Assembly: GCA_964016885.1 (NCBI GenBank)
Contig: OZ024764.1
Coordinates: forward strand, 16,678,001 to 16,742,000
Source: Eledone cirrhosa
Taxonomy: Eukaryota
DNA: 64,000 nt
Reading direction: 5' to 3'
Shown here: positions 799 through 51,157 of the stretch, piece after piece
Numbering within the stretch: position 1 is the stretch's first letter
Layout of the letters: each line of letters opens with the position of its first letter
Made by a program: the position numbers and the translations under genes
The notes under the pieces: generated by a model
Told to the model about the DNA's origin: nothing
Databases searched by the model: none
Seen by the model: only the letters and a program-made list of their open reading frames with translations

Positions 799-856
799 AC
801 ACTATGTATATTTCAATGGCCTGGTTACATAAGATCCTAGCAACATCATCAGGTGC
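799..856 (-). ncRNA. Possible hammerhead motif
   Basis: GCAC / CUGAUGA / weak stem II / GAAA / UAUAC-AUA / GUGU, followed by AAUAAA. Confidence 0.45.
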
Positions 857-1149
857 AGATAGCATAATTAGATAGCTAAATATATGTATGTGTGTCATCA
901 TCATCATCGTTTAATGTCCATCTTCCACGCTTGCATGGAGAGATGCTGTGCTGAAGCACGGAAAGCAGACGTAAAATGATGTATCATCATTTCATTTTAC
1001 ATCCACTTTTCCCTGCCTGCAAGGGTGGGACGGGAACTGATTCTGGCTTGATTTCTACAGCTGGAGGCCCTTCCTAACACCAACCTCATTTACAGTGAGT
1101 GCTGGGTGCTTTCTTGCCGTGGCACCTCCACGACCACTTTGCAGTGGAA

Positions 1150-1302
1150 TGATAGGGACCCCAGTCCCTATCATCTCATTTCTACAGCTGAGTAAACTGG
1201 AGCAATGTGAAATAAAGTGTCTTGCTCAAGGAAACAACACATCACCTGGTCTGAGAATTGAACTCACAACCTTTCGATTGCAAGGCCAATGCTCTAACCA
1301 TT
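1150..1302 (-). mobile_element. tRNA-derived SINE
   Basis: Minus strand TGGTTAGAGCATTGG..GTGAGTTCAATTCTCA (A/B boxes), then CCTTGAGCAAGACACTT. Confidence 0.7.
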
Positions 1303-1693
1303 ACAGATTTCCTTCTATAAAAATATGACCATACAGGGTGTTGGTGATGGTGATAGCAGTGTATGCATGTGTGTGTTTGTGCATGCATGTATGTATGTAT
1401 GTATGTGTGTGTCTGTATATGTAGTGTGGTCTGTGTGTGTAGGCATCTATGTGAGTGTGTATGGTGCAGTGTGTGTATGTATGTGTGGTACTGTTTGGTC
1501 ATCATCTATCTATTGGGGAGAGGGAGGGGGGGGGTCTTTTCTTATCCCCTTCAACCTTTCTTAGAAATTATCATCACCACCATCATCATCATTTAACACA
1601 TATGTTCCATACTAGCATGGGTTAGATTGGTTGTCCCATTGTGAGACAATTCAGAGCAGATGACCATCTCTTGCTCGCACAGAACCATCTCTA

Positions 1694-2939
1694 ACTTGGT
1701 TTCTGTGACTGGTTGCCCTTGGTTTCTGTGACTAGTTGCCCTTGGTTTCTGTGACTAGTTGCCCTTGGTTTCTGTGACTGGTTGCCCTTGGTTTCTGTGA
1801 CTGGTTGCCCTTGGTTTCTGTGACTGGTTGCCCTTGGTTTCTGTGACTGGTTGCCCTTGGTTTCTGTGACTGGTTGCCCTTGGTTTCTGTGACTGGTTGC
1901 CCTTGGTTTCTGTGACTAGTTGCCCTTGGTTTCTGTGACTGGTTGCCCTTGGTTTCTGTGACTGGTTGCCCTTGGTTTCTGTGACTGGTTGCCCTTGGTT
2001 TCTGTGACTAGTTGCCCTTGGTTTCTGTGACTAGTTGCCCTTGGTTTCTGTGACTGGTTGCCCTTGGTTTCTGTGACTGGTTGCCCTTGGTTTCTGTGAC
2101 TGGTTGCCCTTGGTTTCTGTGACTGGTTGCCCTTGGTTTCTGTGACTGGTTGCCCTTGGTTTCTGTGACTAGTTGCCCTTGGTTTCTGTGACTAGTTGCC
2201 CTTGGTTTCTGTGACTGGTTGCCCTTGGTTTCTGTGACTGGTTGCCCTTGGTTTCTGTGACTGGTTGCCCTTGGTTTCTGTGACTGGTTGCCCTTGGTTT
2301 CTGTGACTGGTTGCCCTTGGTTTCTGTGACTAGTTGCCCTTGGTTTCTGTGACTGGTTGCCCTTGGTTTCTGTGACTGGTTGCCCTTGGTTTCTGTGACT
2401 AGTTGCCCTTGGTTTCTGTGACTGGTTGCCCTTGGTTTCTGTGACTGGTTGCCCTTGGTTTCTGTGACTGATTGCCCTTGGTTTCTGTGACTAGTTGCCC
2501 TTGGTTTCTGTGACTGGTTGCCCTTGGTTTCTGTGACTGGTTGCCCTTGGTTTCTGTGACTGGTTGCCCTTGGTTTCTGTGACTGGTTGCCCTTGGTTTC
2601 TGTGACTGGTTGCCCTTGGTTTCTGTGACTGGTTGCCCTTGGTTTCTGTGACTGGTTGCCCTTGGTTTCTGTGACTGGTTGCCCTTGGTTTCTGTGACTG
2701 GTTGCCCTTGGTTTCTGTGACTAGTTGCCCTTGGTTTCTGTGACTGGTTGCCCTTGGTTTCTGTGACTAGTTGCCCTTGGTTTCTGTGACTGGTTGCCCT
2801 TGGTTTCTGTGACTGGTTGCCCTTGGTTTCTGTGACTGGTTGCCCTTGGTTTCTGTGACTGGTTGCCCTTGGTTTCTGTGACTGGTTGCCCTTGGTTTCT
2901 GTGACTGGTTGCCCTTGGTTTCTGTGACTGGTTGCCCTT
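1694..2939. repeat. 23-bp minisatellite, ~54 copies
   Basis: Unit GGTTTCTGTGACTGGTTGCCCTT. Confidence 0.97.
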
Positions 2940-3032
2940 CCTAACGCCAACCAAGTTTACACAGTGTGGACTGGGAACTTTCTCATTCCCTCTTTAAACC
3001 TTTAGCATTTACATTACTCTCTATTTACTACA

Positions 3033-4612
3033 AGTAGTGGTAGTGTCAGTGGTAGTGGTAGTGGTAGTGGTAGTGTCAGTGGTAGTAGTGGTAGTAGTAG
3101 TGGTAGTGGTAGTGTCAGTGGTAGTAGTGGTAGTGTCAGTGGTAGTAGTGGTAGTGGTAGTGTCAGTGGTAGTAGTGGTAGTGTCAGTGGTAGTAGTGGT
3201 AGTGGTGGTAGTAGTGTCAGTGGTAGTGGTAGTGGTAGTGGTAGTGTCAGTGGTAGTAGTGGTAGTAGTAGTGGTAGTGGTAGTGTCAGTGGTAGTAGTG
3301 GTAGTGTCAGTGGTAGTAGTGGTAGTGGTAGTGGTAGTGGTGGTAGTAGTGTCAGTGGTAGTGGTAGTGGTAGTGGTAGTGTCAGTGGTAGTAGTGGTAG
3401 TGGTAGTGTCAGTGGTAGTAGTGGTAGTGTCAGTGGTAGTAGTGGTAGTGGTAGTGTCAGTGGTAGTAGTGGTAGTGTCAGTGGTAGTAGTGGTAGTGGT
3501 AGTGGTAGTGGTGGTAGTAGTGTCAGTGGTAGTGGTAGTGGTAGTGGTAGTGTCAGTGGTAGTAGTGGTAGTGGTAGTGTCAGTGGTAGTAGTGGTAGTG
3601 TCAGTGGTAGTAGTGGTAGTGGTAGTGTCAGTGGTAGTAGTAGTAGTGGTAGTAGTAGTAGTGGTAGTGTCAATGGTAGTAGTGGTAGTAGTGGTAGTGG
3701 TAGTGTCAGTGGTAGTAGTGGTAGTAGTAGTAGTGGTAGTGGTAGTGTCAATGGTAGTAGTAGTAGTGGTAGTGTCAGTGGTAGTAGTAGTAGTGGTAGT
3801 GTCAGTAGTGGTAGTGTCAGTGGTAGTAGTAGTGGTGGTAGTGTCAGTGGTAGTAGTAGTAGTGGTAGTGTCAGTGGTAGTAGTAGTGGTGGTAGTGTCA
3901 GTGGTAGTAGTAGTAGTGGTAGTGTCAGTGGTAGTAGTAGTGGTGGTAGTGTCAGTAAACCAGGAACAGCCACCATCCACTCCACTCCACTCCACTCCAC
4001 TCCACTCCACTCCACTCCACTCCACTCCACTCCACAACAGGACAGGAAGCTAATATAACATTCTTCTCATGTTCATCATAACATGTAATACTTAATGATA
4101 GCTTAACATACTGCTGCTGCTGCTGCTGCTGCTGCTATTACTACTACTGCTGCTGCTGCTGCTGCTGCTGCTATTACTACTGCTGCTGCTATTGCTACTG
4201 CTACTGCTGCTGCTATTACTACTGCTACTACTACTACTACTACTGCTATTACTACTGCTGCTACTGCTACTGCTATTACTACTGCTGCTACTGCTACTGC
4301 TATTACTACTACTGCTGCTACTGCTACTACTACTTACTGCTATTACTACTACTACTACTACTACTACTACTACTACTATTACTACTACTACTACTACTAC
4401 TACTACTACTACTACTGCTATTACTACTACTGCTACTACTACTACTACTACTACTGCTATTACTACTGCTACTACTACTGCTATTACTACTACTACTGCT
4501 ATTACTACTGCTACTACTACTACTGCTACTACTACTGCTATTACTACTACTACTACTACTACTTACTGCTATTACTACTACTACTACTGCTGCTACTACT
4601 ACTACTGCTACT
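3033..4612. repeat. Compound (GTA/GTG)n, (CCACT)n and (CTA/CTG)n microsatellites
   Basis: Direct inspection. Confidence 0.95.
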
Positions 4613-49583: not shown

Positions 49584-49747
49584 ACATCTTTAATAAACTA
49601 AGCCAAATCTTAAATATTTGACTTAATTACTTTATTATATATATATATACAAATATATATATATATATTTACATATATATACACAAAGAGAGAGACACAC
49701 GTGTGTTGTTTTCCAGTTATTTCCTTACAACCACAGACCAATTATGG

Positions 49748-49957
49748 TCAATTGTTGAACTTCATAGAAAATATTTTGGCAATTCTGCAAGCTTCTTCTT
49801 GTGATGGAGGGCAATGGTAATTCTGCGGCTGTTTTTGGCTGTTTCTGTTGAATCCTGTTACCCCAGATGGTTGGTCAGTATGTGGCTTGGACAGCTTACT
49901 GAGCAGGTCTTTCCTGGCTTCCATCTTGCTTTCCTGTCGAGCTGGGTCTAATGTCTC
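49748..49957 (-). CDS. C2CD3: C2CD3 terminal coding exon (ETLDPARQ...SQEEACRIAKIFSMKFNN*)
   Basis: tttcag| acceptor, phase 0, TGA at 49750-49748. EEACRIAKIFS matches the conserved C2CD3 C-terminal EE.LRIARIFS motif (recalled). Confidence 0.9.
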   Translation of the reverse strand, partial: ETLDPARQESKMEARKDLLSKLSKPHTDQPSGVTGFNRNSQKQPQNYHCPPSQEEACRIAKIFSMKFNN

Positions 49958-50325
49958 CTGAAATTTAAGACCAAATAAATGAGAAATCTGTGAAGATCCT
50001 GTTTTTATCTACCCCCAACCCCCATCAACACTACCCCACCCTCATCAACACTACTCCTACATCACCTCTCACTATATATACTACTATAGGTATGTGTGTA
50101 TATATATACACATACATATATATCGTTAAAGGTAATTCGATAAGAGGTTGTGAAAACTACTTATCATGGATAGTTTAATTCTATCATAGAAACAATTGTT
50201 AGACTGTAAATAAATTTCCTTGTTTGTACTGTTGACCATGTTATTTCTCACTTTTTCAATTTTATATATATATATATATTTATACGATATTAATAAATGG
50301 AAACTATATTTATTTCATTATACAT

Positions 50326-50388
50326 ATTTCATTATACATATTTCAGGGATACCAAATTAAATTATGGTATGCTTTCATCAGACAAAAT
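50326..50388 (-). ncRNA. Hammerhead ribozyme, family A, mirror copy
   Basis: Near-exact reverse complement of 50507-50569 with CUGAUGA and GAAA intact. Confidence 0.75.
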
Positions 50389-50506
50389 ACAATATATAAC
50401 AGTTTTACAAATAAGCTTTGACGTACCCTTTTAAAATGCGACCATTATTTTTGGAAGCCATCTGGATAGTTTGTCAAAGCTTATTTGTAAAACTGTTATA
50501 TATTGT

Positions 50507-50569
50507 ATTTTGTCTGATGAAGGCATACCATAATTTAATTTGGTATCCCTGAAATATGTATAATGAAAT
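50507..50569 (+). ncRNA. Type I minimal hammerhead ribozyme, family A
   Basis: AUUUUGU / CUGAUGA / AGG-c-AUACCA..UGGUAU-c-CCU / GAAA / UAUGU-AUA / AUGAAAU. Confidence 0.8.
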
Positions 50570-51157
50570 AAATATGGTTTTATAAATATAGTTTCCATTT
50601 ATTAATATCGTATATCTACTCCAAATACTTGTCGAGTGCTTTATATCAGTTATAAAAATATTTACTTGTTGTATCCCAACAATTTTAAATAGAACTTTTG
50701 CATATATATATATATATATATATATATATATATATATTTATATTTGTTTTGCAAGGTTTTTGATATGAAATCATGTGTCGAAACAAATATTGTTATACTT
50801 GGGGAGGGTCATATTGTTGTAATAATATTGCCAGAAATAATAACAGAACACACTCACTGTGAGTGTGTTCTGTTATTAATTCTGGCAATATTACAACAAT
50901 ATGACCCTCCCCAAGTATAACAATATATATATATATATATATATATATATATATAATAATAATAATGAAAATATTGTGTACAGTGCTCAGGTGCACTACA
51001 ACTCATCAAAAGTGTATGTATAGTATGTATATACATATACACATACACATATATATATATATATATATTTGTGTGTAGATGTGAGAGGTCATTATTTTGA
51101 AGGCGGTAAAGTTTTGTAAGCTATGAAAATTTAGTTAAAGAATAACAACTGATTCAC

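What the first reader, a model, noticed from the sequence alone, without database searches (positions are those of the whole stretch)
799..50614. About 15 minimal hammerhead motifs from 5-6 unrelated families in one window
Seen: family A (6516, 32553, 32898, 33086, 41472, 50326, 50507), B (33544, 49338, 49529), C (27756, 34766 plus truncated copies), and singles at 4751, ~800 and ~33890. The CUGAnGA core varies at the free N7 position (U, C, G, A). Stems covary: AUUUUAU/AUAAAAU versus AUUUUGU/AUGAAAU, and ACAGCCA/UGGCUGU versus AUAGCCA/UGGCUAU. In families A and B stem III is a short, mostly palindromic run (UAUAUA, UACGUA). Established: this minimal dimer-type layout is typical of Penelope-like elements and retrozymes. 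Inference: a diverse and possibly uncatalogued set of non-autonomous ribozyme retroelements.
Basis: partly seen in the sequence, partly recalled or inferred. Interest (0 to 1): 0.85.

Follow-up and report, generated by a model that had tools for sequence, protein, structure and literature searches.

The report
Hammerheads on truncated Penelope-like retrotransposon ends
The 16 hammerhead-ribozyme motifs are real and are the tail ends of six high-copy Penelope-like retrotransposon families, a known arrangement; the genome likely holds about a hundred thousand such motifs, and one family carries an unusual catalytic core whose activity is untested.

Summary
Observation confirmed: 16 type I hammerhead motifs, each within 1 base of the stated place. 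A descriptor finds 14 against 0.05 in shuffles. Stem II of family A shows compensatory changes. The reading as non-autonomous elements is not supported. All six families are high-copy (1,093-1,744 search candidates each), 5'-truncated, mostly end in (TA)n and often form inverted pairs. In longer genomic copies each lies beside an RT + GIY-YIG frame (D in one locus only). Five frames bear Hydra-clade Penelope-like element (PLE) signatures; one is Neptune/Nematis-type. Hammerheads in PLE pseudo-LTRs are published, including a Hydra element from octopus whose hammerhead differs from these. Two extras. (1) Stretches taken at round-number coordinates give about 50 motifs per Mb, roughly 70,000-280,000 genome-wide. 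(2) Family F (33782-33979; 5,518 pattern matches) has A at catalytic position 8 in 98 of 100 listed copies and a stable stem III. Its subfamilies form a ladder UUGAAAA, CUGAGAA, UUGAGAA, UUGAUAA; the C3/A8 step should break the 3-8 pair. Cleavage and expression are untested. Verdict: new members of a known kind.

The parts
799..856 (-). Family D hammerhead, core CUGAUGA, U-U at base of stem II, stem III palindrome damaged in this copy
   Evidence: Hydra-type EN 1.74 kb upstream in L202
4751..4786 (+). Family E minimal hammerhead, core CCGAUGA (U4C), stem III ACGU; 3' end of a Neptune/Nematis-type PLE
   Evidence: 14 of 20 EN loci
4999..5059 (+). Truncated family F end, 3' half of the hammerhead only
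5800..5970 (+). Short PLE ORF remnant (5800-5913, E 1e-4) joined to a 3' half of family F; the only PLE coding trace found in the window
6515..6575 (-). Family A (subfamily A1) hammerhead, CUGACGA
27756..27806 (+). Family C hammerhead, CUGAUGA, 4-bp stem III; element end runs to (TA)n at about 27890
32552..32612 (-). Family A1 hammerhead, CUGACGA, stem III AUACGUAU
32897..32962 (-). Family A2 hammerhead, left arm of an inverted pair (about 32770-33200) between (TA)n runs
33085..33150 (+). Family A2 hammerhead, right arm, CUGAGGA
   Evidence: ORF upstream of an A2 copy in L148
33544..33599 (-). Family B2 hammerhead with a copy-specific G8A change (CUGAUAA)
   Evidence: B2 end plus tail precedes an ORF start in L096
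33782..33875 (-). Family F hammerhead, U3-A8 core UUGAUAA, 6-bp stem III, GUC triplet; left arm of an inverted pair, with the tail to 33690
33887..33979 (+). Family F hammerhead, right arm, 1-nt deletion in stem II, no tail
34766..34816 (+). Family C hammerhead
39806..39930 (-). Truncated family C copy, stem I 5' strand and core start lost
41471..41533 (-). Family A (A3-like) hammerhead
49338..49392 (-). Family B hammerhead, left arm of an inverted pair (49188-49636), with tail
49529..49583 (+). Family B hammerhead, right arm, CUGAAGA, no tail
50325..50389 (-). Family A2 hammerhead, left arm of an inverted pair
50506..50570 (+). Family A2 hammerhead, right arm
60813..60900 (-).

Best explanation
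The motifs are type I hammerhead folds in the 3' pseudo-LTRs of six families of protein-coding Penelope-like retrotransposons (five Hydra-type, one Neptune/Nematis-type), left as short 5'-truncated ends, likely by target-primed reverse transcription at (TA)n runs, and they would cleave only weakly, as dimers or with help from the element's protein. Shown: the folds, copy numbers, ORF linkage, truncation, inverted pairs and two alternative 3' ends. Inferred from published PLE work: the GIY-YIG domain nicks AT-rich DNA and RT starts at one of two sites just past the hammerhead, giving ends with or without a tail. It usually stops early and often leaves an inverted second copy. The hammerhead lies 17-155 bases from the 3' end, so it survives in nearly every insertion, which explains the density. 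Selection on the fold acted in the active master copies; the window copies are dead remnants.
For: Same-strand hammerhead downstream of the EN domain: A in 16 of 25 EN loci, mostly 1.1-1.2 kb away; E in 14 of 20, 0.4-0.5 kb; B in 3 of 3 extended loci, chosen on hints; F in L145, L208, L209, L213; D in 1 of 4 extended loci. C end plus tail runs into the ATG of a full-length frame in L144, and the same frame (90-95% identical) sits inverted beside C in 2 more insertions. Two discrete 3' ends: F 17 nt (8 of 15) or 97 nt (6 of 15) after the cut; B 57-59 (15 of 20) or 155-159 (3 of 20); A1 46-59 (10 of 20) or 144-147 (5 of 20). Hydra motifs DK[T/S], CxCx5C, CxxC..E and N..CxH match the clade definition. 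Published Hydra hammerheads also show U-U at the base of stem II and A or U at the cut. Opposite-strand pairs and solo motifs from truncated PLEs are described in PMC4209133.
Against: Pfam gave no hit on 4 of 4 family A frames and only sub-threshold RVT_1 on 3 of 16 homologs, so the RT/EN call rests on motifs and on likeness by eye to published Hydra proteins. No intact full-length ORF was seen in the loci fetched. D rests on one locus; A2 and B2 on one locus each. No cleavage or expression data. PMC11167929 found hammerhead mutants did not block PLE insertion in vitro and saw no RNA ends at the cut site, so the role of cleavage is open.
Confidence: 0.9

Rival explanations
1. Some families are non-autonomous retrozymes that move as circular RNAs using PLE enzymes in trans.
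For: Family C forms a head-to-tail array of five 194-196-bp units, 38% GC, at G000:C9 (L205), which fits the retrozyme size and layout. D extends over 2 kb upstream with no ORF in 3 of 4 long loci. A 2026 preprint derives animal retrozymes from PLE pseudo-LTRs.
Against: No window copy is in an array. The C array unit is the pseudo-LTR plus the tail up to the ORF start codon, i.e. a PLE partial-tandem product, and was seen at 1 of 19 distinct C insertions fetched (L076 and L077 are the same one). At least 2 of its 5 units have a changed core. All families have ORF-linked copies.
Confidence: 0.07
2. The folds are inherited from PLE ancestors but no longer need to cleave; family F in particular spreads with a dead core.
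For: A family F subfamily spread with C3 and A8, 24 of 100 listed copies. Single changes at 3 or 8 abolished cleavage in a PLE hammerhead, and insertion did not need cleavage. Naiad and most Chlamys PLEs lack hammerheads.
Against: Compensatory changes in stem II of A (16 cells changed on both sides, 0 of 500 shuffles as high; relatedness inflates this). Free N7 in A, B and F, the hallmark of a selected core. Stem II of F versus F2 changes GGCUA/UAGCC to AGCUA/UAG[C/U]U. F returned to U3-A8 in its youngest subfamilies.
Confidence: 0.2
3. Chance matches in AT-rich, microsatellite-laden DNA.
For: Stems I and III of family A are nearly all A and U. MFE folding recovers stems I and II only for some copies (B 49534, A1 32604, A 6567) and not for A2 33093, A 41525 or D. 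Rfam finds nothing.
Against: 14 hits versus 0.05 in shuffles; fixed position in the element; a palindromic stem III kept across variants (97.8% of cells paired).
Confidence: 0.01

Closest known systems
Hydra-clade PLEs (Craig et al. 2021, PMC8557442), including Hydra-1_Obim from Octopus bimaculoides
   Same: C-terminal GIY-YIG without CCHH, DKT, CxCx5C linker, CxxC and CxH around E and N, (TA)n targets, type I hammerhead near the 3' end, U-U at the base of stem II, A or U at the cut site.
   Different: The listed Hydra-1_Obim hammerhead differs by eye from all six families. None of the listed Hydra motifs has an A8 core. These elements have 3' UTRs of 1.1-1.9 kb, against whole elements generally under 3 kb. 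The paper found 'a small number' of extra families; here the EN query gives 49,118 first-look candidates.
Minimal hammerheads of metazoan PLEs (Cervera and De la Pena 2014, PMC4209133)
   Same: Type I, palindromic short stem III, solo and opposite-strand pairs from truncated PLEs, many families per genome, a U3-A8 variant (about 1,300 hits in Schistosoma mansoni).
   Different: Families A, C and D lack G10.1-C11.1. F pairs U3-A8 with a stable 6-bp stem III and a 37-nt loop II. The estimated count is far above the 4,000-9,000 reported for coelacanth and Xenopus, though the descriptors differ.
Neptune/Nematis PLEs
   Same: Family E: Cx4CxxC linker, CxxC just before YIG, minimal hammerhead with ACGU stem III.
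   Different: Neptune versus Nematis not resolved; no tree with references.
Non-LTR retrozymes (PMC7229834; bioRxiv 10.64898/2026.07.22.740005)
   Same: Type I hammerheads in animal repeats; one 195-bp x5 array of family C elsewhere in the genome.
   Different: Window copies are solo or inverted, ORF-linked, not head-to-tail arrays.
Natural U3-A8 core hammerheads (Perreault et al. 2011, PMC3088659)
   Same: C3-G8 covaries to U3-A8 in nature and is active in vitro; U10.1-U11.1 is tolerated.
   Different: That section names no amplified C3/A8 core; here it marks two successive subfamilies and goes with G at position 7.

Membership tests
Type I hammerhead ribozyme | Core CUGAnGA...GAAA...UH in type I order with three stems | tested here: met
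   12 of 16 motifs canonical; 2 U3-A8 (F); 2 changed (33594, 4755)
Type I hammerhead ribozyme | Covariation in the stems across copies | tested here: met
   Family A only: 96.7% of cells paired, 4 of 9 stem II pairs compensatory, 23 rows
Type I hammerhead ribozyme | Match to an Rfam hammerhead model | tested here: not met
   read as a gap in the models for these variants (inference)
Type I hammerhead ribozyme | Site-specific self-cleavage | not testable with these tools
   needs an in vitro assay
Penelope-like element pseudo-LTR | Linked RT + GIY-YIG ORF on the same strand | tested here: met
   A 16 of 25, E 14 of 20, B 3 of 3, F 4 loci, C L144, D 1 of 4
Penelope-like element pseudo-LTR | 5' truncation with an inverted truncated copy | tested here: met
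   4 inverted pairs in the window; L088, L090, L095, L145
Penelope-like element pseudo-LTR | Optional 3' tail (two ends) | tested here: met
   A1, B, F; tails 80-100 nt, longer than the 30-40 bp published
Penelope-like element pseudo-LTR | Partial tandem: pseudo-LTR directly upstream of an ORF start | tested here: met
   C in L144, B2 in L096
Hydra clade (A, B, C, D, F) | DKT in place of DKG | tested here: met
   L086, L144, L096; that region is missing from the D and F pieces
Hydra clade (A, B, C, D, F) | CxCx5C linker | tested here: met
   6 of 12 frames by pattern; D piece reads NCRNRADCP with the first C changed; not matched in the F frame L145
Hydra clade (A, B, C, D, F) | No CCHH in EN; CxxC and CxH flank E and N | tested here: met
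   CxxC..E in 11 of 12 frames; no CxxC before YIG
Hydra clade (A, B, C, D, F) | N-terminal RWK motif | tested here: inconclusive
   IRWT in L144 only; N-termini missing or broken elsewhere
Hydra clade (A, B, C, D, F) | Insertion into (TA)n | tested here: met
   (TA)n follows the end in 17 of 20 A1, 20 of 20 B, 18 of 20 C, 15 of 15 F loci; D 4 of 9 anchored
Hydra clade (A, B, C, D, F) | Element generally under 3 kb (a tendency, not a diagnostic) | tested here: not met
   about 2.1 kb ORF plus 1.1-1.9 kb UTR
Hydra clade (A, B, C, D, F) | Groups with reference Hydra RTs in a tree | not tested
   reference proteins were seen only in the supplement; the tree has unnamed homologs only
Neptune/Nematis PLE (E) | CX2-5CxxC linker and CCHH in a C-terminal EN | tested here: met
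   L206 and L155 frames
Neptune/Nematis PLE (E) | Clade placement by tree | not tested
   no references held
Non-LTR retrozyme | Head-to-tail array of 150-450-bp units each with a hammerhead | tested here: not met
   0 of 16 window motifs; met only by the C array L205 elsewhere
Non-LTR retrozyme | Circular RNA product | not testable with these tools
   no RNA holder listed

The most novel reading that the evidence does not exclude
Family F records a ribozyme active site evolving inside one retrotransposon lineage: UUGAAAA to CUGAGAA to UUGAGAA to UUGAUAA. C3 became fixed only together with G at position 7, so the CUGAGAA subfamily may cleave in a shifted register, C3 pairing with that G, N7 absent and an extra A before stem II. 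That would be a natural hammerhead core without N7, amplified to over a thousand copies, in a genome with one of the densest ribozyme loads known in animals.
Probability: 0.12. Interest if true: 0.6.

Novelty: new member of a known kind. Interest (0 to 1): 0.3.

Why it matters
The arrangement itself is ordinary PLE biology. Two things give it modest value. First, Hydra-clade PLEs, described from about 27 families, appear to have flooded this genome, and their ends are missed by Rfam. Second, whether PLE hammerheads must cleave at all is an open question. Family F offers a direct test: age-ordered subfamilies differ at catalytic positions 3 and 7 on a constant A8, and its stable stem III should allow assay as a monomer. 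If CUGAGAA is dead, cleavage is dispensable for spread in vivo. If it is active, the core rules need widening.

Tried and rejected
Rfam: nothing at gathering score. The E-value scan of the window showed only 150 of 199 rows, all hairpin or microsatellite noise; two sub-stretches showed no hammerhead; one search scanned an unrelated 101-bp stretch and was uninformative. Pfam and PDB sequence searches gave nothing for the family A frames. The named-protein homolog search timed out. The 10 clusters looked up carried no useful names. My first label 'Neptune-like' for family A (notes 1-2) was dropped for Hydra. The idea that C3/A8 is an intermediate from C3-G8 to U3-A8 is disfavoured: the outgroup F2 (2 worn copies) and the oldest subfamily already have U3 and A8. 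The pattern was one base too long and its 9 hits were not counted. Earlier scan findings: none returned. No tRNA genes in the window. Lunse et al. 2017 was not held, so its variant catalogue was not checked. Literature searches for priority; none listed a paper devoted to octopus hammerheads or a C3/A8 core, but most subscription papers and Repbase/Dfam are not covered.
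Full report
Observation. A strict descriptor gave 11 hits against a mean of 0.11 in 100 block-wise dinucleotide shuffles; a looser one gave 14 against 0.05 in 60 shuffles. Twelve motifs have a canonical CUGAnGA core, two have UUGAUAA (family F), and two have changed cores (33594, 4755). Rfam returns no hammerhead.

Structure. In 23 family A copies (7 from the window and 16 picked by hand from the 54 distinct copies listed), 96.7% of cells pair. 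Four of 9 stem II pairs change on both sides, and slid controls pair at 39-55%. Relatedness inflates the shuffle test. Stem III of A and B cannot form a hairpin but self-pairs as a duplex at -2.2 to -6.5 kcal/mol, which fits dimer action. F forms a -7.1 kcal/mol hairpin and could act as a monomer. MFE folding recovers stems I and II for B 49534, A1 32604 and A 6567, but not the full catalytic fold for most copies. The D, E and B2 rows of that call were cut slightly out of register or carry copy-specific changes and are not used.

Genome context. The window lies in a 3.0-Gb assembly. An octopus-like host is my guess from genome size and (TA)n load; no call named it. First-look candidates are A 1,674, B 1,744, C 1,640, F 1,209, D 1,184 and E 1,093; these are not copy numbers. 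Copies share a 3' end at (TA)n, have ragged 5' ends, often form inverted pairs, and in A1, B and F show two discrete 3' ends.

ORF linkage. Family A loci carried GIY-YIG and RT-thumb remnants. Searching with that EN piece gave 49,118 candidates, and in 16 of the 25 fetched loci an A hammerhead follows on the same strand (hand count). A profile built from 44 full-length unnamed homologs linked B (3 of 3 extended loci, chosen on hints), F (L145, L208, L209, L213), A2 (L148), C (L144: end plus tail runs into the ATG of a full frame) and B2 (L096). D was linked in 1 of 4 extended loci. E follows a different EN in 14 of 20 loci. Pfam missed the A frames entirely and gave sub-threshold RVT_1 for the E frame and 3 of 16 homologs. 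All frames seen are broken or truncated.

Classification. The A, B, C, D and F frames show, where the region is present, DK[T/S], CxCx5C, CxxC..E and N..CxH, and no CCHH. This is the Hydra-clade definition in PMC8557442 (section 11 read whole, other passages, supplement parts 1, 2 and 52 plus searched passages). ORFs of different families are 28-51% identical; a quick tree groups A with B, and C with D and F (unfinished careful search, no named references). E has the Cx4CxxC linker and CCHH-type EN of Neptune/Nematis. That supplement lists Hydra-1_Obim from Octopus bimaculoides with a hammerhead unlike these six by eye.

Mechanism. Inferred from PMC11167929 (abstract and main text read): the EN nicks AT-rich DNA and RT starts internally at two adjacent sites, producing the optional tail. 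That hammerhead cleaved only with the protein present and was not needed for insertion in vitro. PMC4209133 (parts 1-2 of 4) reports solo and opposite-strand minimal hammerheads from truncated PLEs with low dimer activity; a review says the same (PMC6765202, passages). Because the motif lies close to the 3' end, even very short insertions keep it.

Density. Twenty 10-kb stretches at round-number coordinates on large contigs gave 10 descriptor hits (null mean 0.67). Sixteen on the window's contig, four of them adjacent to the window, gave 22 (null 0.37); four on other small contigs gave 3. The window (14 per 64 kb) is thus about 4 times the large-contig rate and 1.6 times its own contig's. Poisson limits give 24-92 per Mb, or about 70,000-280,000 motifs in 3.0 Gb; clustering widens this. 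For scale, PMC4209133 gives about 4,000 for coelacanth and 9,000 for Xenopus, and PMC7229834 (passages) up to 120,000 retrozyme copies in axolotl, with other descriptors. At least seven further families appeared in these samples.

Family F. Stem I ACCCC/GGGGU, core (U/C)UGAnAA, a long loop II, 6-bp stem III and a GUC triplet. A pattern leaving positions 3, 7 and 8 free matched 5,518 places (reversed control 0). Of the first 100 listed, all from one contig and with inverted pairs counted twice, my hand count is U3/A8 73, C3/A8 24, G3/A8 1, U3/G8 2, C3/G8 0; 21 of the 24 C3 copies have G7. Trees with those positions masked (46 of 73 rows; 59 distinct rows of 63 kept after filtering, bootstrap not settled, rooted on two long-branch F2 copies) give a ladder UUGAAAA, CUGAGAA, UUGAGAA, UUGAUAA. 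Within-group divergence falls from 0.073 through 0.04-0.056 to 0.032. U3-A8 is a known active variant (PMC3088659, section 8 and passages; PMC4209133). C3/A8 should break the pair. Either cleavage is dispensable, or a C-A wobble is tolerated, or the register shifts; the link of C3 to G7 rests on a single branch, so it may be history alone.

Against my reading. There are no activity or expression data. Links for D, A2 and B2 rest on single loci. One C array of five 194-196-bp units exists elsewhere, so retrozyme-like derivatives occur, in line with bioRxiv 10.64898/2026.07.22.740005 (parts 1-2 of 5; its supplements are closed). An O. vulgaris repeat paper lists 31 recently active Penelope-like families and has no occurrence of 'ribozyme' or 'Hydra' in its main text (PMC13282606, passages); its library was not seen and may already hold these families.

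Verdict. A real feature, explained as ends of Hydra-type and Neptune/Nematis-type PLEs; new members of a known kind. Interest 0.3, lifted by the density and by family F as a ready test of whether PLE hammerheads must cleave.

Noticed in passing
L322 and L323 (G000:C25, one of them within 20 kb upstream of the window): A second, unrelated hammerhead family with a U3-A8 core (UUGAAAA), short stem II and a CCGG stem III, ending near (TA)n; 2 near-identical copies in 400 kb sampled.
   Followed up: no
L205 (G000:C9:23833500-23837600): Five head-to-tail 194-196-bp units of family C, each the pseudo-LTR plus tail up to the ORF start codon; looks like a retrozyme array arising from a PLE.
   Followed up: partly
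L296-L335: At least seven more type I hammerhead families, most with palindromic stem III, in stretches taken at round-number coordinates.
   Followed up: no
window families A, B, D: All three keep a pyrimidine-C mismatch at the fourth position of stem II, above three base pairs; a possible tertiary or protein contact.
   Followed up: no
window:10219-18987: 41-bp tandem array of about 200 copies that contains many CTGATGA words on the minus strand but no hammerhead fold.
   Followed up: partly
window:8634-9001, 21687-23503, 39930-40973, about 55950-56420, about 59000-59700: One 72-bp tandem unit forms arrays at five places in both orientations, sharing flanking sequence: likely a mobile element with an internal minisatellite.
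   Followed up: no
window:33228-33470 and 50744-50922: Foldback elements with shared terminal inverted repeats between (TA)n runs, MITE-like.
   Followed up: no
window:41982-46963: Long inverted duplication with 479-nt arms 98% complementary (42604-43082, 45787-46265), with pieces that resemble a retrotransposon restriction-like endonuclease (recalled motif) at 42249-42557 and 46613-46915.
   Followed up: no
window:61252-62391 (+), relative at 37547-38041: LINE fragment with an RT end and a PHD-finger match above Pfam cut-offs.
   Followed up: partly
window:51131-53836 (-): 901-codon low-complexity open frame with no Pfam match, possibly a large host exon.
   Followed up: partly
L007, L008, L017: The A1 3' end is followed directly by the 5' end of the same SINE-like repeat in 3 of 20 loci.
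   Followed up: no
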